Positions 12,058-39,237 of a stretch of 64,000 bases of DNA are shown one piece after another. The translations under genes were made by a program, and so were the position numbers. Numbering within the stretch: the first letter of the stretch is position 1; every line of letters begins with the position of its first letter. Below the pieces are notes generated by a model. The model made no database searches, had not been told where the DNA came from, and saw only the letters and a list, made by a program, of their open reading frames with translations. The DNA comes from an uncultured Candidatus Competibacteraceae bacterium (GTDB lineage: Bacteria > Bacteroidota > Bacteroidia > CAIKAF01): the NCBI GenBank assembly GCA_964599915.1, contig CAZRHR010000001.1, positions 12,019 through 76,018 on the forward strand, read 5' to 3'.

Positions 12058-13396
12058 TCACACCTGTCCAAAATAATTTTTTTTGACATGAAATTGTTGT
12101 CCCTAAGTTAGGGGTGCAAAAAACAAAATATGTCCCACTCAAATGTATCACTTTTATCGCAAGTTTGTGCGCTGATAGACCGGAATGGATTTCAAAAGCT
12201 GGTTCACGAGCATCAATCTGACAAGCATTCCAAGGGGTTAGATACATGGACACATTTGATGTCTATGATTTTCTTACAACTCTCCAACGTTACCTCTTTG
12301 CGAGATATCAGCAATGGTCTTCGGAGTTCTACTGGCAATTTAAACCACCTAGGGATCCAAAGAGCGCCTTGTAAATCGGCCTTAAGCTACCAGAATCAGC
12401 ACCGTGATTACCGGGTTTTTGAGACGATGTACTACCAGATTTTAGAACGGCTTGGCGGGAGTTTTTCCCAACAAAGGCTGTATGCCAAAAGATTGAAACG
12501 TAAAATCTTTCTTGTGGATGCTACCGTCATTCCCTTTCTCTTGCGTTATTCGACTGGGCTAAGTTCCGAACCACCAAAGGCGCCTTTAAGTTTCATGCAG
12601 TGCTGGATTACGACAATGGTCTGCCCAACTATTGCTATCTCTCAGAGGGAAAGATGTCGGATATCACAGCGGCCAAAAAACGCATGTCTTTTCCCGCAGG
12701 CTCCGTTGTGGTGGCCGATCGGGGTTACATGAATTTTGAATGGTTGAAGCATTTGGACAGCAGCGGGTCAAATTCGTCGTTCGCATCAAATGCAATGTGA
12801 AAATCTAGGTGGAAACCAGCTATGAAACTAACGCCAAGTATCCGCACATCCTATCGGACCAAGACATAAGACTGGTGGGCATTACAGGATTAAAAGACTA
12901 TCCCAAAACACTACGCTTGGTTCGGGTGTATGATGAGCAAAGCGACCAATACCTGATATTAGCCACCAACGAAATGTCTTGGACAGCAGACGCCATTTCA
13001 CAATTATATAAGGCTAGATGGGCCATTGAAAGCTTTTTTAAGCACTTAAAGCAGCTTTTCCGTGTCAAAACATTTGTAGGAACCTCGGCTAACGCAGTAC
13101 GCATACAAATGTGGTGTGCCATGATCGCCATGCTCCTTATCAGTTATTTGAAAAACAAGGCAAAGTACCCCTGGCATCTATCCAATTTGGTTTGCTTTAT
13201 ACGTATCAATTTATTTGCAAAAATAGACTTGTGGTTTTGGCTTAATACCCCATTTTACAAGCCTCAAAAAATCATTCGACCGCCCACTTTATTTTGATGC
13301 AGGGGGATTGGTTTTGCAAAATGGGTTTTTTATGGCCGTAAACACCTAACAATCAAATGACATTTTGGGCGATGAAAAACGTTTTGGACAGCTGTG
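12058..13396 (+). mobile_element. IS4/IS5-superfamily insertion sequence (~1.34 kb) with imperfect terminal inverted repeats CACACCTGTCCAAAAT ... TTTTGGACAGCTGTG
   Basis: The left end at 12058-12073 and the right end at 13382-13396 are inverted repeats of each other. The interior encodes a DDE transposase. The same ends recur around the second copy at 32277..32926. Confidence 0.75.
12130..13297 (+). pseudogene. IS4-family DDE transposase split across three reading frames (two frameshifts)
   Basis: Pieces 12130..12732, 12600..12800 and 12809..13297 lie in frames 1, 0 and 2. They carry VVVADRGY (DDE Asp region) and YKARWAIESFFKHLKQ (the conserved E), so the reading frame is not continuous. Confidence 0.7.
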
Positions 13397-13529
13397 ATGA
13401 AAAATACAGCCGCATGACCCAAAAAAGCAAATAAAAACAGCTAAGTTGCTTATAGTCAATTGTGGTATTTTATGGCGACGACGTCGCGCACAAAACAGGA
13501 AAATTGCTAAGAACCTTAAAAAAACGAAT

Positions 13530-14309
13530 TTACTTACCAAATAGCTTTTTAATAATTTCTTTATTCTTCCAAAACGGAGAGTTCTTAATTTCCTCTAATT
13601 CTTGGACTTTATAAGAGTTTTGAAATAAAACAGATTTGACCCTTTCATAAGATTTATTAAGATAAGTGTTGTTAAACTCTAAACTATAAAATTCTTTGGG
13701 CGAATCATTTCCCAAAAATAAAACACCGAGTCCATAAGAATGATTAAACGAGAATACATTTTTATGATCTTCTGCAATTTCTGTCCATAATTGTTTAACG
13801 CCAAAATTTTCACGTACAACCGTGATGTCATGGAACAAAATTATCCCATTTTTCTTCATTTTTGGAAGCCACTTAGTGTAGTCATTCTTAACTGCCTCAT
13901 AGGTATGAAGCCCATCAATATGAAGTATATCAATTGAATTATTCTCAAATTGAGAAATTTGATCATCAAAATATCCCCTAATTAAGCTGATGTTTACATT
14001 TGCATAATAATTCCGAGCAATTTCCTTAACAAAATCATACATTTTATCACCTTCATATTTACCAGTATTAAGATCCCCTTCCCAGGAGTCAATACCAACA
14101 ATTTTGCAAATAACATCATTTTTATCCTTCAATGCTTGAGCAAATGTAAACAAGGATGTCCCTTTAAAGGTTCCTAACTCAACAACTAATTTGGGATCAG
14201 AGTTCCTTATCAAGTCATATCCAAAAATTTTATGTCCAGACCATGGCAGATGATCGTCAGAAAAGACGGCTTCATAATCAAAAACTGGGTTATAATAGCT
14301 CCAAATCAT
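13530..14309 (-). CDS. Class I SAM-dependent methyltransferase (Methyltransf_24/CmcI-like sugar O-methyltransferase candidate)
   Basis: LVVELGTFKGTSLFTFAQAL...IVGIDSW...ILHIDGLHTYEAV...IILFHDI matches the ELGxxxGxS and HxDxxH pattern of this family. Confidence 0.6.
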   Translation of the reverse strand: MIWSYYNPVFDYEAVFSDDHLPWSGHKIFGYDLIRNSDPKLVVELGTFKGTSLFTFAQALKDKNDVICKIVGIDSWEGDLNTGKYEGDKMYDFVKEIARNYYANVNISLIRGYFDDQISQFENNSIDILHIDGLHTYEAVKNDYTKWLPKMKKNGIILFHDITVVRENFGVKQLWTEIAEDHKNVFSFNHSYGLGVLFLGNDSPKEFYSLEFNNTYLNKSYERVKSVLFQNSYKVQELEEIKNSPFWKNKEIIKKLFGK

Positions 14310-14312
14310 ATA

Positions 14313-15215
14313 TTAATTTTTTGGGTTTCGAATTTTCCAAAAATAATCTCTATAAAAAGAGAAAGGCCTTATAGGTTTGTTAAGGATCATTTTAATCATG
14401 TAGAAAAGAAAAAAAAAGTGAATTCTCTTCTCTGCATAAGCAATTGATAGATATTCATAAGCTACGTAATTTTTGTTAAAGTAATTTTTCAGATCATTGG
14501 GGACTCTTTTTTTTAATTCGTTATTTATTATAATCCAATCTTTATATCGCTGTGGAGAAGAAAATTGAGCAGAGTGTGTAGTAGAAGATTCATGTTGACG
14601 CCACGCCAGAGTTTGTATTGGGATGAATCCAATATCTCCATTCAAAGCACGTAGATAATGAAGTATGGTATCCCACTGCCTTACTTTAAAGAAAAAATCT
14701 GGATAAATTCTAGGTTCAGCACTTTTCCGAAACATAATTGAATTGTTCAGTGGGTTAAAGAAATTCTCTACAAAGAAGTTTAGATTAAAAATCAGTGGGA
14801 CATCTAATTCGACATTCTTAATGATTTCCCCATCTTTATCAACTAAACAGCCATTAGTGAAGCACCATGCTACGTTTTCGTTATGCTCTAAAAACTCTAC
14901 TTGCCTTTTGCATTTTTCCTTATCTATCCAGAAGTCATCGGCTTCTAATAATGCTATGAAAACACCACGAGATTTTTTTATTAAAAATTCATAATTATTG
15001 TGTAGTCCAATATTATTAGTGTGTTTATAATATTTAATATTTTGTGGAAACCTTTTTATCCAACCTTCAACAATTATCTCGGTATTATCCGATGAATCAT
15101 CATCACCTATGAGTAGCTCCCAGGTCTCCGGTAAATCTTGTGAAACTACCGATTGGATGGCCTCAGAAATATATAGGCCCTGATTGAATGCCATCATTAT
15201 AATGGAAAGTTTCAT
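14313..15215 (-). CDS. GT2 glycosyltransferase
   Basis: LSIIMMAFNQGLYISEAIQSVVSQDLPETWELLIGDDDSSDNT and EADDF (DxD) motifs. Confidence 0.8.
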   Translation of the reverse strand: MKLSIIMMAFNQGLYISEAIQSVVSQDLPETWELLIGDDDSSDNTEIIVEGWIKRFPQNIKYYKHTNNIGLHNNYEFLIKKSRGVFIALLEADDFWIDKEKCKRQVEFLEHNENVAWCFTNGCLVDKDGEIIKNVELDVPLIFNLNFFVENFFNPLNNSIMFRKSAEPRIYPDFFFKVRQWDTILHYLRALNGDIGFIPIQTLAWRQHESSTTHSAQFSSPQRYKDWIIINNELKKRVPNDLKNYFNKNYVAYEYLSIAYAEKRIHFFFLFYMIKMILNKPIRPFSFYRDYFWKIRNPKN

Positions 15216-15339
15216 TTAAACTTTGAGGTAAGGGGTTTATAGAAAACTAAAAATAAGTATTAAACCTTCGTATTTCCAAAATTATCGGACACTGATAAAA
15301 AACACAGCCAAAATACAACAATAAAGTCGAAAAATTAAT

Positions 15340-16950
15340 TTAATATACCCTTTTATAAAGTGCTATATCAGAGGAATCGTTGACCGATCCGAAATTAGCT
15401 GCAAGAGTCCATTTTGTGCTATCATTAATGACCGATTTCCTGAACATAGAAATTACAAAACTAGAAATTTCATTGTGAGTATTCTTGTTGGGAGAAGGCA
15501 AAGAGATATACTTGACACATTGAATATCGATTTGCTGGCTGTAGTAATTAAAGATTTTTTCTGGATCGAGGGATCTATCAATATCATAAAAATTCCAATC
15601 AGTAAAATAAAACATAAGATCATTATTTGCCATATATCCCTTTTTACGGTAAAGGTAAACATCAATTGGTATTTCAAGCATTGCACTGTGAAGTAGGAAA
15701 AATCTGTCACTTGGAATCATTTTCTCAAGCAAATAATCAGCCAATTTCAAATTTGTTTTGCGATAAACATTGGAAGAAGGTTCTACTCGAACTAAGTAAA
15801 AGAAGTTGCAAAAGATGAATGCAGCCAGCGAAAATGAGAGTATTTGAGATGCACATGGAAGTTCCCAAAACAATTTTTTCAAAAAATAGGAGAAAAATAC
15901 AAGAAAAGCAAATAGATAAAAGATTGAATATACATGAGGCTGATTGGTGGCTTTGAGTACTAAAAACAAAAAAATAAATAATACAGTGAAAGGATACATT
16001 AACCATAACAAAGAAAAATCATTGTCACGAAACTTGTCATTAGCCCTAAAAGTCGCAATAGTCAAACCAATCAAAAAAAGTAAGATAACAAAAGGTAGGC
16101 CTAATTGCTTAGTAAAACTTTTAAAGAGGGAATAAAAAGATGTAAAATAATCAACATATTGATAATCTGCTGGCTTAGCATAATAATCCAGGAAGAATTG
16201 AAAATGTAAAATACCATATACGCTCCAAACCATTATAAAGAAAGAGGCATAAGTTAAGAAATAAAAAACCTTGATTTTCGAGTAATTACCATTTAAAAAT
16301 TTGAACATAGGGATTAATAAAGGAAAAAAAATTAGTGCTGTATAAACAAAAAAATTATATCGAGAAAAAACGGCAAGCGATATTAGTAAAGGTATTAGGT
16401 ATAAATAATTAAATCCAATGTTTCGGTAAATTATCAACCATAAAAACAAATAAGCAGAAAACAAGCTTAAACCAGAACTTAAATCTGGAACATAGCTAGA
16501 AAGACCCAGTAAGGCATTATAAAATAATGGAATTTGAGAAACGAGTACCAATAAGAGCCAAACGCCTGCTGGCCTTAAATACAATGAAAACCATTTAAAT
16601 AATGCAAAGTTAAAGAAAAATAAAGCGATGAAAGAACGCACAATAATATTAAATCCAGAATTCAACCAAAAAGGATTCACGAGGCACGTCAGAGCAGTAA
16701 AACCACCACTGACAGGATTGCCTACCAATTCATAATAGGCTTGATTACATCGTTCAATAAAAGAGTAGTTTTGTTTAAAAGATAAGAATCTTAAAATCTG
16801 CTTTTTTTCATACATTACCCCATCAAACTCTGGCAAATTCGTTTCCAAATAACTTGCGGAAATAATCGATGAAATCCAAACAACACAAAAGCTCAAGCAA
16901 AAAAGCAGAACTAAATGAAAAAATGGTTTAGGGCGCAATTTCATATTCAC
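15340..16950 (-). CDS. Polytopic integral membrane protein (candidate GT-C transferase or O-antigen polymerase/ligase-like)
   Basis: 536 aa, at least 10 hydrophobic segments, AT-rich codon usage. It follows the aminotransferase, formyltransferase and GtrB-like genes. Confidence 0.45.
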   Translation of the reverse strand: MNMKLRPKPFFHLVLLFCLSFCVVWISSIISASYLETNLPEFDGVMYEKKQILRFLSFKQNYSFIERCNQAYYELVGNPVSGGFTALTCLVNPFWLNSGFNIIVRSFIALFFFNFALFKWFSLYLRPAGVWLLLVLVSQIPLFYNALLGLSSYVPDLSSGLSLFSAYLFLWLIIYRNIGFNYLYLIPLLISLAVFSRYNFFVYTALIFFPLLIPMFKFLNGNYSKIKVFYFLTYASFFIMVWSVYGILHFQFFLDYYAKPADYQYVDYFTSFYSLFKSFTKQLGLPFVILLFLIGLTIATFRANDKFRDNDFSLLWLMYPFTVLFIFLFLVLKATNQPHVYSIFYLFAFLVFFSYFLKKLFWELPCASQILSFSLAAFIFCNFFYLVRVEPSSNVYRKTNLKLADYLLEKMIPSDRFFLLHSAMLEIPIDVYLYRKKGYMANNDLMFYFTDWNFYDIDRSLDPEKIFNYYSQQIDIQCVKYISLPSPNKNTHNEISSFVISMFRKSVINDSTKWTLAANFGSVNDSSDIALYKRVY

Positions 16951-16989
16951 AAGTCTAAGATTTCTTTAATCAGAAATTCAGCTTCAGAC

Positions 16990-17395
16990 ACTGTTTCACC
17001 ATTATATTAGGCTATATGGGCTATTGAAAGCTTTTTTAAACACTTAAAGCAGTTTTTCCGTGTCAAAACATGTGTGGGAATCATGGCTAATTCAGTACGC
17101 ATAAAAATGTGGTGTGCCATGATTTCCATGCTCCTTATCAGTTATTAAAAAAAACAAGGCAAAGCACCCCTGGCATGTATTTAATTTGGTTTGTTTTATA
17201 CGCATCAATTTATTTGCAAAAATTGACTTGTGGTTTGGGCTTAATGCTCCATTTTACAGGCCTCAAAAAATCATTCGACCGCCCACTTTATTTTGATGCA
17301 GAGGGGTTGGTTTTGCAAGATGGGTTATTACAGCTGTAAACGCCTAACAATCAAATGCTATTTTGCGCGATGAAAAACGTTTTGAACAGCCGTGT
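16990..17395 (+). repeat. Solo 3' fragment (~400 bp) of the IS4-like element, with no left end
   Basis: Aligns base-for-base, about 90% identity, with 13005..13396 of copy 1. This includes the transposase C-terminal coding remnant and the right inverted repeat. Confidence 0.7.
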
Positions 17396-17475
17396 TGCAA
17401 AATAGAATTTCTTGAGCGTAAACGCTAAAAATCAGATGCTATTTTTGGAGTTGAAAAACGTTTTTGACAGGTTTT
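17336..17475 (+). repeat. Tandem duplication of the ~60-bp IS right terminus
   Basis: GTAAACGCCTAACAATCAAATGCTATTTTGCGCGATGAAAAACGTTTTGAACAGCCGTG recurs 22 bp later as CGTAAACGCTAAAAATCAGATGCTATTTTTGGAGTTGAAAAACGTTTTTGACAGG. Confidence 0.6.
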
Positions 17476-17480
17476 ATTTT

Positions 17481-18629
17481 TTAACCTCTTTCACAACATT
17501 CAAAAATTTTATTGGTAACATGACTAATATCCGCCTGACTCAAATCATAATACATTGGCAGGCGTATCAAGGAATTGGAATAAAAATCTGTCATTGGCAA
17601 TCTCCTCCCATCGTGTTTTCCTTCATAAAAGGTACTCGTGTGTAAACTGATATAATGAAAAACGGCAAGTATATTATTTGATTTCAAATTATTAATAAGT
17701 TGAGTCCGCTGTTCTAAATCTTTACAAACTAAATAAAACATGTGGAAATTATTAGAAGCAAAATCAGGAATACATGGTAATCCAATGTTATTATTTTCAG
17801 CCCATGATTTCAGGCCCTGATAATAGGTAGTCCAAATTTCTTTTCGGCGGATTTGAATATCTTCTAAGTTCTCTAATTGCGCCCACAAAAAGGCTGCAAT
17901 TATTTCTGAGGGCAAGAAAGAACTTCCAACATCCACCCAACCGTATTTATCAACTTCTCCTCTAAAAAAAGAGGACCGGTTTGTTCCTTTTTCCCAAATA
18001 ATCTCAGCTCGTTTTGCAAACTGCATATCGTTGATCGCTAGCAAACCTCCTTCACCAGAAATGATGTTTTTGGTTTCATGAAACGAGAAAGCAGCCAAAT
18101 GACCAATACTCCCTAAAGCACATTTTACCCCATTCCTACCTGTATAATAACTATCTATGGCTTGCGCAGCATCCTCTATTACAAAAAGACCATGCTTTTT
18201 GGCTATGTCCATGATGATATCCATATCACAAGCCACACCAGCATAATGAACAGGTATGATAGCTTTTGTTTTAGGGGTTATTAACGCTTCAATGGACGCC
18301 TCATCAATACCTGGATGGTCTTTTCTGCTATCAACAAATACCAATTTCGCCCCTCTTAACACAAAGGCATTGGCGGTACTTACAAAGGTATAAGACGGCA
18401 TTATTACCTCATCACCGGGTTGAATATCTATCAAAATGGCAGCCATTTCTAAGGCATCCGTACAAGAAGTGGTCAGCAAACATTTGCCAAAACCGTAGGT
18501 TTTTTCAAACCATTTTTGGCATTTTTGAGTGTATATACCATTTCCCGATAGTTTGCCCGTATGTACTGCGTCGTAAATGTAATGCGCTTCCTTACCCGTG
18601 AGGTGAGGTTTGTTGAAAGGAATATTCAT
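17481..18629 (-). CDS. DegT/DnrJ/EryC1/StrS-family PLP-dependent sugar aminotransferase (ArnB/WecE-like)
   Basis: MNIPFNKPHLTGKEAHYIYDAV...GKCLLTTSCTDALEMA...AIIPVHYAG is diagnostic for this family. Its ATG overlaps the TAA of the upstream formyltransferase gene (TAATG). Confidence 0.9.
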   Translation of the reverse strand: MNIPFNKPHLTGKEAHYIYDAVHTGKLSGNGIYTQKCQKWFEKTYGFGKCLLTTSCTDALEMAAILIDIQPGDEVIMPSYTFVSTANAFVLRGAKLVFVDSRKDHPGIDEASIEALITPKTKAIIPVHYAGVACDMDIIMDIAKKHGLFVIEDAAQAIDSYYTGRNGVKCALGSIGHLAAFSFHETKNIISGEGGLLAINDMQFAKRAEIIWEKGTNRSSFFRGEVDKYGWVDVGSSFLPSEIIAAFLWAQLENLEDIQIRRKEIWTTYYQGLKSWAENNNIGLPCIPDFASNNFHMFYLVCKDLEQRTQLINNLKSNNILAVFHYISLHTSTFYEGKHDGRRLPMTDFYSNSLIRLPMYYDLSQADISHVTNKIFECCERG

Positions 18630-19492
18630 TATGTGAATCTTAATCTAAAATTAACTAACTCCATTTTTTGACCATTTTCATCAAAAAAATCTTTTACACC
18701 TAGCAACCCACTACCACATACAATAATGAAAGTATCATTTTTTTTAAATAACACCTTACCTGGCTTTCTATTTTCGATAAAAACATCTTCTAAGAGAATT
18801 GAATCCTTGACATACAATTTAATATTATTCCAAGTCGTATAAGCACCTTTATATGGATAACCCACTGCGTCAATAAATCTTTTAATATATTCCGCTGAAT
18901 TATTCCAATCGATTACATAATCAGCCTCATCTCTCCAAAGACTATAAGTTGCCAATAATTCATCCTGAGGTTCCGAATGTATAATACCTGCCTTTAATTT
19001 ATAAATTAAATCATTTATAGCCTCTCCATAAAGAAAACTAACTTGTTCAATTGCAACCTTTATTTTTATAGGATAATTAATTTTAATTTTTTTTTGAATG
19101 ATTATCTCTCCTATATCGTAATCCTCTGTGCCAAATAGAATTGAAACCCCAACCTCATTATCACCATTTATAAGTGCAGTTACTAGAGGATTAAAACCTC
19201 TTAATCGAGGTAATAGAGAATCGTGAAAAACAATCAATTTAGAGTTATCTTTTATTAACCACCTCCACCCTATTGCTATGCTATAATCAGCAATACTTTT
19301 TACAATTGTTTTGTTTTGAAGTAAATAGGTAATATTATTGGTCTCACAATATTTTTTAATATCAGTAGAATAATCATTTAAGACATTCTTATCGCTGCCA
19401 ATTATAACACAATCAATAAGTGATAAAAATTTCAAATTTATTGATTTTAAGGCAAAATAACCTTTTCCCCCTAATAGGTATAGATTTATCAT
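18629..19492 (-). CDS. Formyltransferase-fold protein (sugar N-formyltransferase candidate, ArnA-N/VioF/Fmt-like)
   Basis: HDSLLPRLRGFNPL matches the HxSLLPxxRG catalytic motif of N10-formyl-THF-dependent formyltransferases. Translationally coupled to the aminotransferase. Confidence 0.65.
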   Translation of the reverse strand: MINLYLLGGKGYFALKSINLKFLSLIDCVIIGSDKNVLNDYSTDIKKYCETNNITYLLQNKTIVKSIADYSIAIGWRWLIKDNSKLIVFHDSLLPRLRGFNPLVTALINGDNEVGVSILFGTEDYDIGEIIIQKKIKINYPIKIKVAIEQVSFLYGEAINDLIYKLKAGIIHSEPQDELLATYSLWRDEADYVIDWNNSAEYIKRFIDAVGYPYKGAYTTWNNIKLYVKDSILLEDVFIENRKPGKVLFKKNDTFIIVCGSGLLGVKDFFDENGQKMELVNFRLRFT

Positions 19493-19493
19493 A

Positions 19494-20158
19494 ACCCGTT
19501 GTGCGGTTTAAATATCATAATAAAAGAAAAAAGTTGTCCATATTACTGAAAATCAGTGTTTTGATGTAGGATATCAAGCTTACACAAGAATGCACAAGCT
19601 AAAAATAAATTACAACAAATTTTGCAAAGATGACAAGCACGTTCCGCCAGCCAAATCATATCATGCAGCGCATAAGGTTTACTATTATGGGTTTAAATTG
19701 CAACTCATGGGTAGTAAGCAAAGTATTCCTATTACCGCAGGTATGACTGCGGCTAACGTTCATGATGTCAAATATCTTGGCATGATTGATTTTGATGAAC
19801 AAATGTATAACTGTGAGTTAGTTGGAAATAAGGGGTATTTATCATTGGGATATCAAACATCCTTATTTAATCAGGCTAAAATAAAACTCGTCACACACCT
19901 CCGTAGTAATATGAAAACCGTTATGTCATCTTGGAATGAAAAATATTGCTACACAAGAAAACGTATTGAGACTCTATTTTCTCAGCTAGATGATCAGATG
20001 ATGAACAATCGTAATTATGCGAAATCACTCGATGGATTATTTTCACGAATCATTTATATACTCTCATTGGTGGCTGTTCTACAATGGATTAATTATAGCA
20101 ATGGAAAACCCATAAACCATATTAAGCATGCACTCGCATTTTAAACCGCACAACGGAT
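19494..20158 (+). mobile_element. IS982-family-like element, internally deleted (~665 bp), bounded by 19-bp terminal inverted repeats
   Basis: ACCCGTTGTGCGGTTTAAA at 19494-19512 and TTTAAACCGCACAACGGAT at 20140-20158 are inverted repeats (17 of 19 matching). The element sits exactly between the stop of 20162..21127 and the start of 18629..19492. Confidence 0.7.
19590..20144 (+). pseudogene. N-terminally truncated IS982-family DDE transposase (184 aa, lacks the first Asp region)
   Basis: VGNKGY (the GDKGY-like second Asp) and RKRIETLFSQL (the conserved Glu) are present. The N-terminal HTH and first catalytic Asp region are missing. Confidence 0.6.
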
Positions 20159-20161
20159 TTG

Positions 20162-21127
20162 TCATACTGTTGAAAGTTGGATTAAATAAATAGGTCTTTT
20201 TTTAACCCCTTCAAATGTTTTACCCACATATAATCCAACTACTCCCAACATTACTAATAGTAGACCTGAGAAGAACCATATAGAAATAACTAAACTTGTG
20301 TAGCCTTGCACAGTTACCTCCCCGACAAAATACCTAATTAAAAAAACCAACCCCATTACAAATGCTAAAAGCGATACAATAATACCAAATTTTATCATTA
20401 GCCTTATGGGTTTATCTGAATAAGCCAAAATAATGTCTAAAGCTAAATTAAGTAAACGCTTAAAATTATATGATGACTTACCCTCTGATCTTTTTGCATG
20501 CTCTATTGGAATGGCCGTTTGATTAAAGCCTACCCATTTGACCATTGTTGGAAAATATCGTATTGATTCACGCATCAAAGTCAAAGATTGTATAACCTTT
20601 CGGCTATATATTCCAAAGTTTGCAACACTTTCATCCATCTTGTAACCAGTTAAATAACCTAACATCCTATAGAACATTTTTGAGAAAAATCTTTTAAAAA
20701 AGGCATCTTGTCTCTCAATTCTCTGGGCTAAAACAACGTCATAACCCTCATAAGTTTTTTGGTAAAGTTTGTAAATTTCCTCAGGTTGATCTTGTAAGTC
20801 ACAGTCCATAACCACAACCCAGTCTCCCTTTGCATGATCTAGTCCACACGCTATGGCGTAATGTTGCCCAAAATTTCTACTCAACTTAAAACCTTTAACA
20901 CGAGGATTTTTCTTTGCTATATCTTCAATTGCTTCCCATGAGTTATCAGGACCACAATCTTCAACCAAGATAATTTCGTAGTTTAAAGTAATCTTTGAAA
21001 TTGAATGGTCTATTCTTCTAATTAATTCGGGTATAATTTTTTCAGCTCTATAAACAGGGCTCACGATAGAAATATGAGGCTTAAAAGATTTTGAAATCAT
21101 AATTTTACATTTTTGAAGTGGACACAT
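20162..21127 (-). CDS. Polyprenyl-phosphate glycosyltransferase, GT2 (GtrB/ArnC-like), with two C-terminal TM helices
   Basis: ISIVSPVYRAEK...LVEDCGPDNS...RNFGQHYAIACGL...VVMDCDLQDQPEE...GKSSYNFKRLLNLALDIILAYSDKPIRL matches the GtrB/ArnC family closely, followed by a two-helix membrane anchor. Confidence 0.85.
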   Translation of the reverse strand: MCPLQKCKIMISKSFKPHISIVSPVYRAEKIIPELIRRIDHSISKITLNYEIILVEDCGPDNSWEAIEDIAKKNPRVKGFKLSRNFGQHYAIACGLDHAKGDWVVVMDCDLQDQPEEIYKLYQKTYEGYDVVLAQRIERQDAFFKRFFSKMFYRMLGYLTGYKMDESVANFGIYSRKVIQSLTLMRESIRYFPTMVKWVGFNQTAIPIEHAKRSEGKSSYNFKRLLNLALDIILAYSDKPIRLMIKFGIIVSLLAFVMGLVFLIRYFVGEVTVQGYTSLVISIWFFSGLLLVMLGVVGLYVGKTFEGVKKRPIYLIQLSTV

Positions 21128-21239
21128 AATTAATAAGTATCATTTTGTATTGACTAAAGCGGCCAATAAATTAGTTTACTGTGATGCACCATGATGGATA
21201 TGCTCCTGACCAGCGATTAAAGAGACAAAACACCAGCAG

Positions 21240-21420
21240 CCTCTATCTAAATTATTTTGAACAAATCAATTTATTTGCAAAAATCAACTTTGGTTCTTGG
21301 CACAATACTCTACATAATTTTGATGCCAACTTTGGTTGGGTAAAATGGGGGTTAAAGGCCTTATGTATCAAATAATCAAATGCTAATTTACGATGTAAAA
21401 CGGTTTTGGACAGATATGAT
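21240..21420 (+). repeat. Degenerate ~180-bp remnant of the IS4-like 3' terminus
   Basis: INLFAKINFGSWHNTLHNF at the DNA level resembles INLFAKIDLWFWLNTPFYK of copy 1. It ends in AATCAAATGCTAATTTACGATGTAAAACGGTTTTGGACAG, which matches the right inverted repeat. Confidence 0.5.
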
Positions 21421-21423
21421 TTT

Positions 21424-22536
21424 TCATCTTAGATTTATCTTCTCACCTAATTGATGAACATTTACCAAAACATTAGTATTTACTAGATATTCCTTTTCAT
21501 TGCCATTTATCATCCCCTCTGAAACTAATTTAAAGATTGGGGGATTCGCCGTTTCACAAAATAAGGCATCGTAGTCTATGCTGACGGCATGGGCTAATTT
21601 CCAAAATGGAAATGTATATTCTGCGCGCGCATAGGCTTCATTAATAAGTTCTATAACCCTTGCTCCAGTGGGACAAAACATAAGGTTTGATAAACCTGCC
21701 CCATGCAGGGAAATAAACCGCTCCGCTTGGCTCATCATGGCAATCTGTTCCCATACGCTCATGTTTTCAAAAAATATCGCTTCAAACCCTTCTTTTTGAA
21801 GAAACGGCAAAATTTCTTCTTCGTTTTCCACACAACGCACACCTCGCTTCTTACGCGATAAGTACACATGACGTGGAAATAGGGTTTCAGGATTTATTCT
21901 TTTCCAAGCTTCTTGTCGTAGCCGATCAGCCGTTTTCTTAATCAAGGGTGGATAAAAAGAAGCCGTCCAAGGCCTGAGCTCGGGCATATAGAGTTTGTGA
22001 GCGAATACATGTGCTCCCTCCGGAATGAAGCGCGGTGTAAAAGAAAAAGCTTCCAAGGTATCCCATACATAGGGAATGTTTTTCCAGCCCTCAGGTACCA
22101 ATAACACCGCTTTCTTGAGCAAACCTGCCTCTTCGGCCATGATAAGCCGGGGCAAATAAGCATTTACCCAAAACGCATAATTAAACCATTTGGAATGGAT
22201 GACCACACAGGGATCCTCCACCCTCACGGAGGGCAGGCTATTTCCCCAGCGACAAACTGCATATTCCTCAATGGTTTGGCGCCAGAAAGGATAGTAAAAA
22301 GTGTTATCCTCCCTGCCCCGGAGATTAAATGCACAACCAGTAACTAACAGCCCGTTCCTCATCACCAACCCTGAGTGGCTCACAAAGGCATTCTTCAATT
22401 CGCGGATATGAGGTACGGGGGCACAATATTCAGCCCTACGCTCCATCAGGGACCTGTATTCCTTTGGGATTTCTTGTGGAACAGGGACCTTTATGTTCAG
22501 CCATTTCCTCATTTTTTCCTCATTTTTATCATCCAT
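21424..22536 (-). CDS. GT61/DUF563-family glycosyltransferase candidate
   Basis: C-terminal HGAGLSNLMFCPTGARVIELI resembles the conserved HGAGLTN block of DUF563/GT61 proteins. Confidence 0.5.
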   Translation of the reverse strand: MDDKNEEKMRKWLNIKVPVPQEIPKEYRSLMERRAEYCAPVPHIRELKNAFVSHSGLVMRNGLLVTGCAFNLRGREDNTFYYPFWRQTIEEYAVCRWGNSLPSVRVEDPCVVIHSKWFNYAFWVNAYLPRLIMAEEAGLLKKAVLLVPEGWKNIPYVWDTLEAFSFTPRFIPEGAHVFAHKLYMPELRPWTASFYPPLIKKTADRLRQEAWKRINPETLFPRHVYLSRKKRGVRCVENEEEILPFLQKEGFEAIFFENMSVWEQIAMMSQAERFISLHGAGLSNLMFCPTGARVIELINEAYARAEYTFPFWKLAHAVSIDYDALFCETANPPIFKLVSEGMINGNEKEYLVNTNVLVNVHQLGEKINLR

Positions 22537-23450
22537 CTGATGATATCCCCAAAAATGGGTATCGAATACAATAACATCACTGCCAGCGGCTTATTGGTAC
22601 GGCCGTTGTAGCTTGGGGGACACAACAGGAAAGAGCGCAGGCCCTGACTCCAAACCTCACTGCTTTTTTTTTCCCTGAATGCTTTTATGGCTATATGATA
22701 CCTACACATGCTGCGCAGCCTGTTCTTTTCCTTTCGGGGCAGTTTAGCCTTCAATTCGGGACGGGCAAAAATCTTCTTTAAATTAGTCAATTCCCGGCCC
22801 CATTTGTCAGATGCTCCATGCGTAAAACTATCCGGCGCAGCCACATACACCGTGGTGCGCGCTTTGAGCTGATAAACAGGCACACCCGCAGCTACCATAC
22901 GAAGAGAAGTATCCATATCCTCGCAGATGGTTACTGCGGGGTCAAATAAATGTTGGCGCATAACATTCTTGTGCACAGCCCAACGTTGAGGATTTACGGT
23001 GTAACGCAGAAAATAGGAATAGGAGTCAGTGCTTTCCAAATCTGGGCAATGCCGTTCTGTTCGAACGCCGGATGCCGATTCATCCCAAGCATTGGTGAAA
23101 AAGAAGGCCTCGGGTTCTCCTTGAGACGTAATCAAATCATGCAACTGTTGCAAATGTTCGGGCAGGTGATAATCGTCGCTGTCCAAAAAGCAGATGTATT
23201 TTCCCGAAGACAACTTTATACCGCGGTTTCGGGAAACACAACGTTCCTGATTCGTATCATTTTTCAGGTAACGAATACGGGTGTCCTGTTGTGCAAAAGA
23301 GTACACGAGTTCCGCGGTTTGGTCCACAGAGGCGTCATCTACGATAATCAATTCCCAAGAGGTAAAGGTTTGAGCCAATACGCTTTCCAGCGCCTTTGCC
23401 AGGTGATGAGCCCGGTTATAGCTGGGAATGATGAGGGAGAAATAGGGCAT
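22509..23450 (-). CDS. GT2 glycosyltransferase
   Basis: YFSLIIPSYNRAHHLAKALESVLAQTFTSWELIIVDDASVDQT and CFLDSDDYHLPEH motifs. Confidence 0.85.
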   Translation of the reverse strand: MPYFSLIIPSYNRAHHLAKALESVLAQTFTSWELIIVDDASVDQTAELVYSFAQQDTRIRYLKNDTNQERCVSRNRGIKLSSGKYICFLDSDDYHLPEHLQQLHDLITSQGEPEAFFFTNAWDESASGVRTERHCPDLESTDSYSYFLRYTVNPQRWAVHKNVMRQHLFDPAVTICEDMDTSLRMVAAGVPVYQLKARTTVYVAAPDSFTHGASDKWGRELTNLKKIFARPELKAKLPRKEKNRLRSMCRYHIAIKAFREKKSSEVWSQGLRSFLLCPPSYNGRTNKPLAVMLLYSIPIFGDIIRWMIKMRKK

Positions 23451-23670
23451 GGCTTGTTTGGCCGTTCGGTTGTTGCTATTTTATGGTAATTAGGCAATGG
23501 GGCATCAGCCAGAAAGCAAGAGTGAAAGTTTTGATTATTACGTTGCAGCTACTCTTTGGTCTGATAGTAATCGGACGTGCGTTGCATGCTCTGCGGGACT
23601 CCAGTTGCTATATTTGAATGTTTTTATGTTCAGTGAGGCTTTTAGGTTCTTTTTTCGATAAACTCCCATT

Positions 23671-23701: not shown

Positions 23702-24327
23702 TTAGGTTGTTTGTCCACCAAGAAAGTGACCTATTTCTGACTTGATTTTTTCTTTGCAGTCATCCCAATTACATGGCAACAACATTTTCGGTTGTGTCTC
23801 TTTATCAGCATCTTCAAAACAGGTAAGGCTTTTTAGGACCATAAAAATAGATCCACTATGATACTTTTTTTTGTAAAAATCAAACATTTCTGAAAGTGAG
23901 TAGATGGAAAGAAGGAAGTATAGATCAATAAAGTCCTTTTTGAACCTCTTCCTGCAATGGCATTCAACTTCATTGCCGCAATATCTTTGGTGGAAGCCAT
24001 ACGAATTCCATCTACCGTACTTGCTTTTTCCAGGATGGGATAGGAATAATTTACAAAATCTACTTTTATATTGTTAATACTAGTGATTAGAATTTTTGAG
24101 GATTTTTTGATCGTAAGCAGTTCTCCTACAGTTGATAACAGATTTAAAATTTCATCCATTTCAAGCCGGGACTCACCAAATAAATCAATATCTACAGAAT
24201 TCCTATGCCCTATTTGAAGAGCTAATGAAGTACCTCCAACAAGATCAAAATCGTTTAAGGCGCTTATTTTCATTAAGCTATTTAAGAGTTCCAGAAGTTC
24301 CTCGCTGACGGTTTGCTTGTGTAACAT
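23702..24327 (-). pseudogene. AbiEii/AbiGii-type nucleotidyltransferase toxin (DUF1814) disrupted by a -1/+1 frameshift in an A5 run
   Basis: N-terminal LVGGTSLALQIGHRNSVDIDLF is the AbiEii GGxxLxL...DxD nucleotidyltransferase motif. Shifting frame at CAAAAAGG (~23916-23922) joins it to ...GRGSKKDFIDLYFLLS..., the family's conserved KDFxDLYFL block. That continues into the 23702..23887 ORF. Confidence 0.6.
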
Positions 24328-32258: not shown

Positions 32259-32276
32259 TGATATATGATTTTAATT

Positions 32277-32926
32277 CACAATTGTCCAAAATGTTATTAA
32301 TCGCCCAAAATGTCATTTGATTGTTAGGCGTTTACGGCGGTAAAAAACCATTTTGCAATACCAATCCCCTGCATCAAAATAAAGTGGACGGTCGAATAAT
32401 GTTTTCAGGTTTGAAAAATGGGGTATTAAGCCAAAACCACAAGTCTATTATTGCAAATAAACTGATGTGTATAAAGCAAACCAAATTGTATAGATGCCAA
32501 GGGCACATTGCCTTGTTTTTCAAATAACTGGTAAGGAGCACGGCTATCATGGCACACCACATTTGTTTGCATACTGTGTTAGCCGAGGTTACCACAAACA
32601 TTTTGACACGGAAAAGCTGCTTTAAGTGCATAAAGAAGCTTTCAAAAGTCCATCTGGCCTTATTTAATTGTGAAATGGTGTTTGCTGTCCAAGACATTTC
32701 ATTGGTGGCTAAAATGAGATATTGGTCGCTTTGTTCATCACACACCCGAATCAAGCGCAGTATTTGGGGATAGTCTTTTAATCTTGTATTGCCCACCAGT
32801 CTTATGTCTTGGTCCGATAAGATGTGCGGATGCTTGGCGTTAGTTTCATAGCTGGTTTCCAACTAGATCTTCGATGTCCCTATTTTTATGACAAAAAAAT
32901 TATTTTGGACAGGTGTGATTAAAAAC
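32277..32926 (-). mobile_element. Second, internally deleted (~650 bp) copy of the IS4-like element retaining both terminal inverted repeats
   Basis: Ends are CACAATTGTCCAAAAT (32277-32292) and ATTTTGGACAGGTGTG (32911-32926). Relative to copy 1, roughly 12106..12795 is deleted. The remaining sequence is about 85-90% identical. Confidence 0.7.
32374..32862 (-). pseudogene. C-terminal 162-codon transposase fragment of IS copy 2
   Basis: METSYETNAKHPHILSDQDIRLVGNTRLKDYPQILRLIRVCDEQSDQYLILATNEMSWTANTISQLNKARWTFESFF... is about 85% identical to 12809..13297. Confidence 0.7.
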
Positions 32927-37869: not shown

Positions 37870-39111
37870 TCACTCACGGCTATAGTTAAAATCAACTTGG
37901 GGTATTATATAACCACTTCGTTTCCCGTAATAAAAATCCATAAATGATTCATCACATAATTCAAAGTTAAGTATATCCTTTAAATATCCTAAAAGCTCAG
38001 TTGATTCCAAATGAAAGTTTAGTTGGACAGCATAAATTCCTGAATTCAATGTTCCGCCGGGTAATAAAAAAGTACAATTAATTCTACCTGGCGCTTCTGT
38101 GATCATTGGGGACGGGTTCTCAAAAATAACCTCCTCATTATTCCCTCTAACAATAAGATTTATATAAAAACCATTTAAAATAGAGTGCTCGAATTCAACA
38201 TTAAATCTTATTGCGTCTGAAGGATTTAACTGGTTGCCATCACTGGAAATGTGCACCCGATGCACCCATAAGCCTTCGCTTAGACGCCCTTCATCTCCCA
38301 AGATAACATTGATTTTTCTTGGTTCAGTGTCATCCATGTAAGCACGGATTGCACGGCTTGTTTCATCAATAGTTTTGATATTGCCATTTTTTAAAAACAT
38401 TACAGAACTGCATAGCGCTTTAATACTCAGTAAATTGTGACTAACAAAAAGCACCGTTCGACCCTCTGATGCACTTACATCCTTCATCTTTCCCAAACAC
38501 ATCTTCTGAAACTCACCATCCCCAACAGCCAATACCTCATCCACAATCAAAATCTCACTTTCCAAATGGGCCGCTACCGCAAAAGCCAATCGCACATACA
38601 TGCCGCTGCTATAGCGCTTTACCGGCGTGTCAATGTAGCGTTCCACTCCGGCAAAGTCTATGATTTCATCCAGCTTTCTGGTGATCTCATGTTTGCGCAT
38701 CCCCAAAATGGCACCATTTAAATAAATATTTTCCTTTCCGGTAAGCTCCGGGTGAAATCCTGTACCGACTTCAAGCAGGGAAGCGATGCGACCCTTTACT
38801 TTGATGTTTCCGGTCGTAGGGGCCGTTACCTTGGAGAGTATTTTTAATAAAGTGCTTTTCCCTGCGCCATTGCGCCCAATAATACCCAAAACTTCACCTT
38901 GTTCCACATCGAAACTTACATCTTGCAACGCCCAAACATAATCGGAAACTCCTTTTTGGGTGCGGTCATTTGTTTCACCAATTTTTTGAAATGGATCTTC
39001 TTTTCCCCTCATGGTATGCCACCACCGAAGGACATCGTCACGTAAGGTGCCGCTGCCAACGGTGCCAAGTCGGTATTGTTTAGAAATATTTTGGGCTTGG
39101 AGGATTTTCAT
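37870..39111 (-). CDS. wzt: Polysaccharide ABC exporter ATP-binding protein (Wzt/TagH-like) with a ~160-aa C-terminal extension domain
   Basis: Walker A GIIGRNGAGKSTLLKIL, signature YSSGMYVRLAFAVA, Walker B ILIVDEVLAVGD. The extra C-terminal domain is the Wzt-type substrate-recognition region. Confidence 0.9.
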   Translation of the reverse strand: MKILQAQNISKQYRLGTVGSGTLRDDVLRWWHTMRGKEDPFQKIGETNDRTQKGVSDYVWALQDVSFDVEQGEVLGIIGRNGAGKSTLLKILSKVTAPTTGNIKVKGRIASLLEVGTGFHPELTGKENIYLNGAILGMRKHEITRKLDEIIDFAGVERYIDTPVKRYSSGMYVRLAFAVAAHLESEILIVDEVLAVGDGEFQKMCLGKMKDVSASEGRTVLFVSHNLLSIKALCSSVMFLKNGNIKTIDETSRAIRAYMDDTEPRKINVILGDEGRLSEGLWVHRVHISSDGNQLNPSDAIRFNVEFEHSILNGFYINLIVRGNNEEVIFENPSPMITEAPGRINCTFLLPGGTLNSGIYAVQLNFHLESTELLGYLKDILNFELCDESFMDFYYGKRSGYIIPQVDFNYSRE

Positions 39112-39237
39112 GAATAGGATTAAAGATAAGTGTGATTTAAAATATGCGTTTGGCTTAATTTATGTTCAGCGTAGTAAGGAACAGAATTTTTCAGGCACAT
39201 AGTTTATTAAAACAATAAAGATACTTACTATCAATAC

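What the first reader, a model, noticed from the sequence alone, without database searches (positions are those of the whole stretch)
19494..20158. MITE-like IS982-family derivative with 19-bp inverted repeats inserted exactly between two genes of the Arn-like operon
The inverted repeats ACCCGTTGTGCGGTTTAAA and TTTAAACCGCACAACGGAT bound a 665-bp element. It encodes only the C-terminal 184 aa of an IS982-type transposase (second Asp and the Glu are present, the first Asp region is missing). It fills the entire gap between the stop of the GtrB-like gene (20162) and the start of the formyltransferase gene (19492), on the opposite strand. It should therefore be polar on, or newly drive, the formyltransferase and aminotransferase genes. 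That could act as an on/off switch for the formyl-aminosugar decoration.
Basis: seen in the sequence. Interest (0 to 1): 0.5.

Follow-up and report, generated by a model that had tools for sequence, protein, structure and literature searches.

The report
Dead IS982 insertion between two sugar genes
A broken, immobile copy of an IS982-family jumping gene sits exactly at the former overlapping stop/start junction of two sugar-modification genes in a Bacteroidota polysaccharide locus; both genes are still intact, so this is an ordinary insertion scar and there is no evidence that it acts as a genetic switch.

Summary
A 665-bp element (19494-20158) is bounded by 19-nt inverted repeats that match at 18 of 19 positions (19/20 with one more base). 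These repeats are the genuine ends of 1012-1036-bp IS982-family elements in many Bacteroidota genomes. Two details need correcting. First, the 184-aa ORF is not a C-terminal fragment. It keeps the native start and first 11 codons, fused in frame across a 360-bp internal deletion that removes the N-terminal region and the first catalytic Asp. Second, the Asp of the conserved GDKGY motif, which I take to be the second catalytic Asp, is Asn here. An 8-bp target duplication (TTATCATA / TTGTCATA) flanks the element. Removing the element plus one copy restores an ATGA stop/start overlap between the GT2 and formyltransferase genes. The same junction is seen in uninterrupted related operons. The duplication therefore regenerated both codons, and both genes remain full length. 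The formyltransferase shows no decay, whereas the transposase remnant does. I found no second copy, no autonomous partner, no terminator and no convincing outward promoter. The identical insertion occurs in two other samples. It is a fixed, defective IS relic that uncouples, and probably attenuates, the downstream genes. "MITE-like" and "on/off switch" are not supported.

The parts
19486..19493 (.). Left copy of the 8-bp target-site duplication (TTATCATA). On the minus strand it reads TATGATAA and supplies the formyltransferase ATG (19492-19490).
   Evidence: Sequence. It matches the right copy at 7 of 8 positions; chance P about 9e-4. The reconstructed empty site matches the ATGA junction of uninterrupted relatives.
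19494..20158 (+). Internally deleted IS982-family element, 665 bp.
   Evidence: Window 19494-19623 aligns to positions 1-122 of the 1017-bp full-length copy in L076 (88% identity). Window 19621-20156 aligns to positions 480-1015 (80% identity).
19494..19512 (+). Left inverted repeat, ACCCGTTGTGCGGTTTAAA.
   Evidence: It fits the family consensus AC(N)6T(N)5TT.
19590..20144 (+). Remnant transposase ORF, 184 aa. Native residues 1-11 are fused in frame to about residues 132-304. The HTH region and first Asp are deleted, the GDKGY Asp is Asn (residue 80), and the Glu is retained (residue 127).
19621..19623 (+). Junction of the 360-bp (120-codon) in-frame internal deletion. A TTT microhomology is shared by both parental flanks (AAATTTT / AAAGTTT in L076).
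20140..20158 (+). Right inverted repeat, TTTAAACCGCACAACGGAT. The terminal dinucleotide is AT instead of AC.
20159..20166 (.). Right copy of the target-site duplication (TTGTCATA). On the minus strand it reads TATGACAA and supplies the GT2 stop codon TGA (20164-20162).
20162..21127 (-). GT2 polyprenyl-phosphate glycosyltransferase, similar to ArnC, GtrB and PgfS. The likely true start is 21100. The C-terminus is intact.
18629..19492 (-). Sugar N-formyltransferase, 287 aa, full length and not decaying.
17481..18629 (-). WecE-type dTDP-4-amino-4,6-dideoxyhexose aminotransferase. Its start overlaps the formyltransferase stop.
   Evidence: 573 bits against a curated cut-off of 375.

Best explanation
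A single, defective IS982-family insertion sequence transposed into the 4-bp ATGA stop/start overlap that originally coupled a GT2 polyprenyl-phosphate glycosyltransferase gene to a sugar N-formyltransferase gene.

Shown. The insertion made an 8-bp target duplication (minus strand TATGATAA). One copy now provides the GT2 stop codon and the other the formyltransferase start codon, so both ORFs survive intact but lie 669 nt apart. The element has lost 360 bp in frame, removing the N-terminal region and the first catalytic Asp. It carries Asn at the conserved GDKGY Asp. Its right-end terminal dinucleotide is changed from AC to AT. It therefore cannot move itself. No partner element or second copy was found, and the same insertion is seen in three independent assemblies.

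Inferred. Transcription from upstream of GT2 reads through the element in antisense, since no terminator is detected. Translational coupling is lost, and the formyltransferase must start translation on its own. In the computed fold of the read-through RNA the two inverted repeats pair into a 20-bp stem that ends 1 nt before the AUG. The net effect would be attenuated, uncoupled but not abolished expression of the formyltransferase and aminotransferase genes. That makes it a stable scar, not a reversible switch.
For: - Identity: Pfam DDE_Tnp_1_3 and NCBIfam transpos_IS982 hits. The ORF is 81-82% identical to 304-312-aa full-length transposases.
- Ends: identical to those of 1012-1036-bp elements in Mucilaginibacter, Arcticibacter, Pedobacter, Dyadobacter and metagenomes.
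- Deletion: mapped to positions 123-482 of the L076 element; 360 bp, in frame.
- Decay of the remnant: D80N, plus departures at 5 of 44 columns that are at least 95% conserved; the median for 90 full-length relatives is 0.
- Target duplication and empty site: flanks match at 7 of 8 positions (P about 9e-4). The reconstructed junction ...CAACAGTATGATAAATCTATACC... parallels L086 ...CCACAGAATGATAAATTTATACC.... In 15 of 17 related loci with GT2 followed by the formyltransferase gene, the two genes overlap. None of the 80 related loci carries a transposase at this site.
- Downstream genes intact: the formyltransferase is 287 aa, like its homologues, at 100% coverage. It departs at 0 of 55 conserved columns, against a median of 1 in homologues. 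dN/dS is 0.20 against its nearest relative and about 0.16 on the window branch.
- Fixed insertion: the same insertion occurs in Logan SRR14492188 (100% identical over 12.9 kb) and SRR8925817 (one mismatch, outside the element).
- No terminator-like site at 19000-21500 on either strand.
- Inverted-repeat stem: present in both the minimum-free-energy and centroid folds of the read-through RNA.
Against: - No expression data exist, so read-through, attenuation and independent translation start are all inferences.
- Rho-dependent polarity across about 670 untranslated nt cannot be assessed.
- The terminator and sigma-70 scans are simple consensus tools that are not tuned to Bacteroidota.
- The age of the insertion rests on a single mismatch in the duplication. 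'The formyltransferase stayed under selection after the insertion' is therefore only weakly supported. The deletion and D80N could predate this insertion if the element was mobilised in trans.
- I could not search the whole source genome, so an unassembled partner copy is not excluded.
- The assignment of the GDKGY Asp as the second catalytic residue rests on my knowledge of IS4/IS5-type DDE motifs, not on a test made here.
Confidence: 0.8

Rival explanations
1. One reading: a MITE-like mobile element that a cognate transposase can insert and excise in trans, toggling the formyl-aminosugar decoration on and off.
For: Both inverted repeats and a target duplication are retained, so mobilisation in trans is conceivable. 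The IS982 lineage is clearly active in other Bacteroidota: many copies sit at contig ends.
Against: - It is single copy in the window. Its protein cluster has one member on two contigs, both at the same locus.
- The closest full-length relatives are only 81-82% identical and come from other samples.
- The right terminus is AT rather than the conserved AC (consensus).
- The identical insertion is found in three assemblies, and no empty-site allele was found.
- At 665 bp with a long ORF, it is not MITE-sized or non-coding.
Confidence: 0.05
2. The element provides an outward-facing promoter that now drives the formyltransferase and aminotransferase genes, as IS1187 does for cfiA in Bacteroides fragilis.
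For: - There is a precedent in the same family and phylum: IS1187 supplies -7/-33 motifs (PMC7335449).
- One exact Bacteroidota -7 box, TACATTTG, lies on the minus strand at 19807-19800, 308 nt upstream of the formyltransferase ATG.
- A 10-of-12 sigma-70-like site spans the right end at 20165-20138 on the minus strand.
Against: - TAnnTTTG boxes occur at the chance rate: 73 found against 73.4 expected.
- By my reading of the sequence, the box at 19807 has no properly spaced TTTG/TTG -33 partner.
- Sigma-70-like sites also occur at the chance rate: 13 found against 13.3 expected.
- I saw no match in the last 100 nt of the element facing the formyltransferase gene.
Confidence: 0.1
3. The insertion is fully polar. 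The formyltransferase and aminotransferase genes are silent and the strain has lost the N-formyl sugar; the genes look intact only because the event is recent.
For: - About 670 nt of untranslated RNA inside an operon is a classic substrate for Rho-dependent polarity (established knowledge).
- Translational coupling is destroyed.
- The inverted-repeat stem abuts the AUG.
- The aminotransferase branch shows roughly 2.6-fold higher dN than its L083 sister branch.
Against: - The formyltransferase departs at 0 of 55 conserved columns, and dN/dS on the window branch is about 0.16.
- The duplication already carries a substitution, and the insertion is fixed in three assemblies. This argues against a very recent event.
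- No intrinsic terminator was found.
Confidence: 0.15
4. The element marks an IS-mediated recombination joint that swapped the N-acyl gene (formyl versus acetyl) next to GT2.
For: - The closest GT2 relative (L083, 89% identity) carries a GNAT acetyltransferase in place of the formyltransferase.
- The closest formyltransferase relatives (87% identity) follow a Wzx flippase gene, not a GT2 gene.
- The module is bracketed by remnants of another IS.
Against: - The flanks form a matching target duplication that contains both the GT2 stop and the formyltransferase start. The two genes were therefore already joined by an ATGA overlap when the element inserted.
- Recombination between two IS copies would leave flanks that do not match.
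- More distant relatives have the same GT2-ATGA-formyltransferase junction.
Confidence: 0.03

Closest known systems
IS1187 (Bacteroides fragilis) and ISPrsp2 (Parabacteroides): IS982-family members from Bacteroidota
   Same: Same family and same phylum. They have about 20-nt inverted repeats that begin with AC and direct repeats of 7 bp; the window element's is 8 bp (Table 1 of PMC7335449). IS1187 is known to alter expression of the neighbouring gene.
   Different: They are 1021-1028 bp with an intact transposase of 324-326 aa. The window element is 665 bp, carries a 360-bp in-frame deletion and lacks two of the three catalytic residues. No outward promoter is evident. I did not measure sequence identity to IS1187. 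The closest full-length relatives I found are unnamed metagenomic elements at 81-82% aa identity.
ISLhe1 between lacL and lacR in Lactobacillus helveticus: an IS982-family element between genes that partly lowers expression
   Same: An IS982-family element that sits between genes of one cluster, not inside a coding sequence, and is reported to reduce but not abolish expression. Its registered transposase is also shortened, at 240 aa.
   Different: The host phylum differs. The window element sits precisely at a former stop/start overlap, and no effect on expression has been measured.
MITEs and other non-autonomous IS deletion derivatives
   Same: It derives from a full IS by internal deletion, retains both terminal inverted repeats and a target duplication, and cannot move by itself.
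   Different: MITEs are typically shorter, non-coding and present in many copies. This element keeps a 184-codon ORF and is single copy in all the data I could search.
The arn (pmrHFIJKLM) Ara4N lipid A modification operon
   Same: Same logic and gene classes: a DegT-type aminotransferase, an N-formyltransferase, a GT2 that loads an N-acylated aminosugar onto polyprenyl phosphate, and a large membrane protein nearby.
   Different: The aminotransferase passes the curated cut-off for WecE, the dTDP-4-amino-4,6-dideoxygalactose transaminase, and fails the one for ArnB. The formyltransferase has no ArnA decarboxylase domain. The GT2 is below the ArnC cut-off. The 536-aa membrane protein matches no family. 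The sugar is more likely a dTDP-4-formamido-4,6-dideoxyhexose.

Membership tests
IS982 family insertion sequence | The transposase matches the IS982-specific profile. | tested here: met
   NCBIfam NF033520 gives E 6.7e-35 and 120.8 bits over profile positions 96-240 of 243. That is below the 130-bit cut-off only because the protein is truncated; the 81%-identical full-length relative P0004 scores 218 bits. Pfam PF13612 gives E 1e-14.
IS982 family insertion sequence | Terminal inverted repeats of 11-32 nt with the conserved pattern 5'-AC(N)6T(N)5TT. | tested here: met
   The left end ACCCGTTGTGCGGTT fits exactly. The right end reads ATCCGTTGTGCGGTT, with position 2 changed from C to T. The repeats match at 18 of 19 positions (19 of 20 with one further base) (consensus from PMC7335449).
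IS982 family insertion sequence | Direct target repeats of 2-10 bp. | tested here: met
   TTATCATA / TTGTCATA, 8 bp, 7 of 8 matching. The reconstructed empty site agrees with uninterrupted relatives.
IS982 family insertion sequence | Length 845-1282 bp with one complete transposase gene of about 240-326 aa. | tested here: not met
   The element is 665 bp and the ORF is 184 aa. A 360-bp in-frame internal deletion is seen relative to 1012-1036-bp relatives. It is a deletion derivative, not an intact member.
IS982 family insertion sequence | A DDE catalytic triad and an N-terminal helix-turn-helix. | tested here: not met
   The first Asp (in the motif VIDSMP) and the whole N-terminal region are deleted. 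The GDKGY Asp is Asn. The Glu (in RKRIETLF) is present. Which residues form the triad is taken from my knowledge of IS4/IS5-type motifs.
MITE (miniature inverted-repeat transposable element) | Small and non-coding. | tested here: not met
   The element is 665 bp, and 555 bp of it is an open 184-codon transposase remnant.
MITE (miniature inverted-repeat transposable element) | Present in multiple dispersed copies in the genome. | tested here: inconclusive
   There is no second copy in the 64-kb window. The 184-aa protein occurs only at this locus among 5.8 billion clustered proteins. The complete source genome could not be searched.
MITE (miniature inverted-repeat transposable element) | Terminal inverted repeats and a target duplication inherited from a parent IS. 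| tested here: met
Arn (Ara4N) pathway operon | ArnB, the UDP-Ara4N aminotransferase. | tested here: not met
   The ArnB model gives 225.6 bits against a cut-off of 631. The WecE model gives 572.9 bits against a cut-off of 375.
Arn (Ara4N) pathway operon | Bifunctional ArnA (formyltransferase plus decarboxylase) and ArnC. | tested here: not met
   The formyltransferase scores 86 bits against 777 and covers the formyltransferase part only. The GT2 scores 212 bits against 529 for ArnC, and 244 bits against 500 for PgfS.

The most novel reading that the evidence does not exclude
The relic has been co-opted as a cis-acting attenuator. By replacing the ATGA translational coupling with a 669-nt antisense spacer, it would set a lower, independently tuned level of the formyl branch. 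In the read-through RNA the spacer's inverted repeats fold into a 20-bp stem that abuts the formyltransferase AUG, and it faces convergent transcription from the remnant transposase promoter. Selection would then retain the insertion, which would explain why it is fixed in three assemblies while the downstream genes stay under purifying selection.
Probability: 0.08. Interest if true: 0.4.

Novelty: new member of a known kind. Interest (0 to 1): 0.2.

Why it matters
The main value is for annotation. The 184-aa 'DDE transposase' is a dead remnant, the two flanking genes are intact, and the locus should not be read as a phase-variable or mobile switch. It is also a clear example of how an 8-bp target duplication can regenerate both the stop and the start codon when an IS lands in an ATGA gene overlap, leaving both ORFs undamaged. 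If expression data later show attenuation, it would be a small case study of an IS uncoupling a translationally coupled pair in a Bacteroidota surface-polysaccharide locus. The wider locus is rich in IS debris and shows swapping of the N-acyl gene between relatives. That may interest people who study glycan diversity more than the element itself does.

Tried and rejected
- Chance inverted repeat: rejected. The 17-mer is unique to the two ends, and the same termini bound full-length elements elsewhere.
- Global MAFFT alignment of the element against the full-length L076 copy placed the deletion wrongly. I replaced it with two local alignments, which gave a clean 360-bp deletion.
- Empty site through the closest formyltransferase homologues (P0124, P0125, P0128): these sit after a Wzx flippase gene, not a GT2 gene, so they were uninformative. 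A metagenome scan with the GT2 protein gave 17 loci with GT2 followed by the formyltransferase gene, and these settled the junction.
- Population presence/absence: no near-identical empty-site allele exists in the databases. The best other formyltransferase is 87% identical and the best other GT2 89%. The only other contigs with the locus carry the same insertion.
- Autonomous partner: the nearest full-length transposases come from unrelated samples.
- Promoter and terminator scans: nothing above chance.
- Rfam scan of 16800-21600: nothing of note; one hit, SNORD50, at E 0.58.
- Organism name: cluster look-ups returned no names. The UvrD search places the window only broadly in Flavobacteriales-like Bacteroidota, at 60% or less to named taxa.
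- IS-mediated cassette swap: considered and rejected because the flanks form a matching duplication.
- Aminotransferase identity across contexts: uninformative, at 91-93% everywhere.

Full report
**Observation**

The reported inverted repeats are real. Arms 19493-19512 and 20140-20159 are 20 nt long and 95% complementary. The 17-mer core CCGTTGTGCGGTTTAAA occurs only at these two places in the 64-kb window. Even with three mismatches allowed, 0.19 matches are expected by chance.

The ORF between the repeats (19590-20144, plus strand, 184 aa) matches Pfam DDE_Tnp_1_3 (E 1e-14). It also matches the NCBIfam IS982 transposase model (E 7e-35, profile positions 96-240 of 243).

The minus-strand neighbours are as follows:
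- A GT2 glycosyltransferase, 20162-21127.
- A 287-aa formyltransferase, 18629-19492.
- A DegT-family aminotransferase, 17481-18629.

Only one base (A19493) and three bases (TTG, 20159-20161) separate the element from the formyltransferase ATG and the GT2 stop codon.

**Are the repeats genuine IS ends?**

An exact scan of one genome per species found the 17-mer at 73 loci. Most are in Bacteroidota (Mucilaginibacter, Parapedobacter, Dyadobacter, Lacihabitans, Arcticibacter, Pedobacter). Many lie 75-90 nt from a contig end, which is typical of multicopy IS that break assemblies.

Where both ends fall in one locus, they bound elements of 1012-1036 bp with termini ACCCGTTGTGCGG…CCGCACAACGGGT. The left end fits the published family consensus 5'-AC(N)6T(N)5TT (Fayad et al. 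2020, PMC7335449). The window's right end has AT instead of AC at the very tip.

**What the ORF really is**

I aligned the ORF with relatives of 304-312 aa that are 81-82% identical. It is not a C-terminal fragment that begins at an internal Met. It keeps the native start and the first 11 residues (MHKLKINYNKF, against MHNLKSNYDKF in relatives). It then jumps in frame to CKDDKHV…, which is about residue 132 of the full-length protein.

At the DNA level the result is the same:
- Window 19494-19623 aligns to positions 1-122 of the 1017-bp element in L076 (88% identity).
- Window 19621-20156 aligns to positions 480-1015 (80% identity).
- This gives a 360-bp (120-codon) deletion with a TTT microhomology at the junction.

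The deletion removes the N-terminal region, where IS982 transposases carry their predicted HTH. It also removes the first catalytic Asp, in the motif VIDSMP.

The Asp of the GDKGY motif is Asn here, whereas 89 of 90 full-length relatives have Asp. I take this Asp to be the second catalytic residue, from my knowledge of IS4/IS5-type DDE transposases. The Glu is present.

Overall the remnant departs at 5 of 44 columns that are at least 95% conserved in relatives, against a median of 0 for those relatives. The transposase is dead and shows signs of decay.

**Target duplication and the ancestral junction**

The 8 bases left of the element (TTATCATA, 19486-19493) match the 8 bases to its right (TTGTCATA, 20159-20166) at 7 of 8 positions. 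At the local base composition the chance probability is about 9e-4. Eight bp is within the family's 2-10-bp range.

Deleting the element and one copy of the duplication gives, on the minus strand, …TCAACAGTATGATAAATCTATACC…. In this sequence the GT2 stop TGA overlaps the formyltransferase ATG.

To test this I retrieved 80 metagenomic loci that encode GT2 relatives.
- Seventeen of them have GT2 directly followed by a formyltransferase homologue, and in 15 of these the two genes overlap.
- Several use the same ATGA overlap. L086, for example, reads …CCACAGAATGATAAATTTATACC….
- None carries a transposase at this position.

So the IS landed in a translationally coupled junction, and the duplication regenerated both the stop and the start codon. 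This explains why the element appears to fill the gap exactly while both ORFs are intact. The GT2 C-terminus has the same length as in its 89%-identical relative.

**State of the downstream genes**

- The formyltransferase is 287 aa, like nearly all of its homologues, at 100% coverage.
- It departs at 0 of 55 columns conserved in 116 homologues, whose own median is 1.
- Its dN/dS is 0.20 against the nearest relative. A three-taxon split gives about 0.16 on the window branch.
- The aminotransferase is also full length. dN on its branch is somewhat higher than on its sister branch, but dN/dS is still about 0.16, with dS near saturation.

There is therefore no sign of pseudogenisation, in contrast to the IS remnant.

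**Mobility and the 'switch' idea**

- BLASTN with the element and TBLASTN with a full-length transposase find no other copy in the window.
- The 184-aa protein is a singleton cluster seen on two contigs, and both are this same locus.
- Those contigs come from Logan SRR14492188 (100% identical over 12.9 kb) and SRR8925817 (one mismatch, at 20315, outside the element). Both carry the identical insertion.
- The closest full-length transposases come from other samples.

With no partner, a changed terminal dinucleotide and no empty-site allele, reversible on/off behaviour is unsupported. The 'MITE-like' label fits only in the loose sense of a non-autonomous derivative that keeps both ends.

**Effect on expression (inferred, not shown)**

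- No intrinsic-terminator-like site occurs at 19000-21500 on either strand.
- Sigma-70-like sites occur at the chance rate, 13 found against 13.3 expected.
- The Bacteroidota -7 box TAnnTTTG also occurs at the chance rate in the window, 73 found against 73.4 expected.
- One exact box lies inside the element on the minus strand (19807-19800), but by my reading of the sequence it has no properly spaced -33 motif.

IS1187, a Bacteroides member of the family, is known to supply a -7/-33 promoter to cfiA. A promoter role is therefore conceivable, but nothing here points to it.

In the computed fold of the read-through minus-strand RNA, the two inverted repeats pair into a 20-bp stem. The DNA mismatch becomes a G·U pair in this stem. 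Its 3' arm ends 1 nt before the formyltransferase AUG, in both the minimum-free-energy and centroid structures.

My best reading is read-through with lost coupling and some attenuation. Complete polarity is the main rival.

**Context**

- The window is from a Bacteroidota genome. It encodes a protein with the CHU_C type IX secretion domain. Its UvrD is at most 60% identical to named Flavobacteriales such as Luteibaculum and Parvicella.
- The aminotransferase passes the curated cut-off for WecE (dTDP-4-amino-4,6-dideoxygalactose transaminase) and fails the one for ArnB.
- The GT2 resembles ArnC and PgfS but is below both cut-offs.
- 'Arn-like' therefore describes the logic, not membership. The likely product is a polyprenyl-phosphate-linked dTDP-derived 4-formamido-4,6-dideoxyhexose.
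- In the closest GT2 relative (L083, 89% identity) a GNAT acetyltransferase replaces the formyltransferase, again across an ATGA overlap.
- Because the IS flanks form a matching duplication, the IS did not create this mosaic.

**Verdict**

This is an ordinary, defective IS982-family insertion: a new, unnamed member of a known kind. It shows neatly how a target duplication can preserve an overlapping stop/start pair. Interest is low.

Noticed in passing
window 12058-13397: A second, unrelated IS of the IS4 family, with 23-nt inverted repeats (TCACACCTGTCCAAAAT… / …TTTTGGACAGCTGTGA). Its transposase is split into two ORFs: 12130-12732 (DUF4372, IS4_1 profile positions 4-117) and 12809-13297 (DDE C-terminus, profile positions 243-331). 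It is probably also defective.
   Followed up: partly
window 32269-32925: An internally deleted, inverted copy (about 657 bp) of the IS4-like element, with both inverted repeats retained (90-92% identity). The roughly 19-kb glycosyltransferase cluster from 13.4 to 32.3 kb is therefore bracketed by inverted copies of one IS, an arrangement like a composite transposon. It is also a second IS deletion derivative of about 660 bp with both ends intact in the same window.
   Followed up: partly
window 16985-17470 and 21180-21420: A 5'-truncated copy of the IS4-like element lies at 16985-17404 (88% identity), with an extra repeat of its tail at 17392-17470. A degenerate copy lies at 21180-21420 (69-73% identity). 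Together they bracket the GT2 / IS982-remnant / formyltransferase / aminotransferase module. Both occupy the gaps just upstream of gene starts: the 536-aa membrane protein gene and the GT2 gene.
   Followed up: partly
window about 13500-21400: A low-GC island (about 27-36% GC, one 500-bp bin at 41%) lies inside a locus that is 43-48% GC at 21500-23500. It contains a methyltransferase gene, a GT2 gene, the 536-aa membrane protein gene and the aminosugar module. This suggests acquisition as one or more cassettes.
   Followed up: no
L083 1060-3834, compared with window 17481-21127: The N-acyl gene in the three-gene module is interchangeable between relatives. The closest GT2 (89% identity) is followed by a 222-aa GNAT acetyltransferase instead of the formyltransferase, and many other loci have a gene of about 700 bp in that slot. 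The closest formyltransferases (87% identity) sit after a Wzx flippase gene in a different kind of cluster.
   Followed up: partly
window 15340-16950 (-): A 536-aa polytopic membrane protein downstream of the module has no Pfam or NCBIfam match at all. It is the candidate GT-C/ArnT-like transferase for the lipid-linked sugar, but this is untested.
   Followed up: no
window 23833-24327 (-) and the adjacent upstream ORF: An AbiEii-type toxin gene (the AbiEii match covers only the first ~93 of 238 profile positions, so it may be truncated) and a DUF6922 gene form a pair embedded in the middle of the glycosyltransferase cluster.
   Followed up: no
L031, L011, L049 and window 20159-20161: In this IS982 subgroup the target duplications are exact in L049 (7 bp). 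In L031, L011 and the window, the mismatches fall in the 2-3 nt that directly abut the right end. Either the right end carries a few extra variable bases or the right-hand copy is error-prone. Four other copies show no duplication. L031 shares the window's unusual …GGAT right terminus.
   Followed up: no
window 37870-40083 (-): An ABC-transporter ATPase gene (413 aa) lies next to an adjacent 281-aa ORF at 39238-40083 that was not scanned against any family library. I suspect, without having tested it, that the surrounding polysaccharide locus uses an ABC-transporter-dependent (Wzm/Wzt-like) export route.
   Followed up: no
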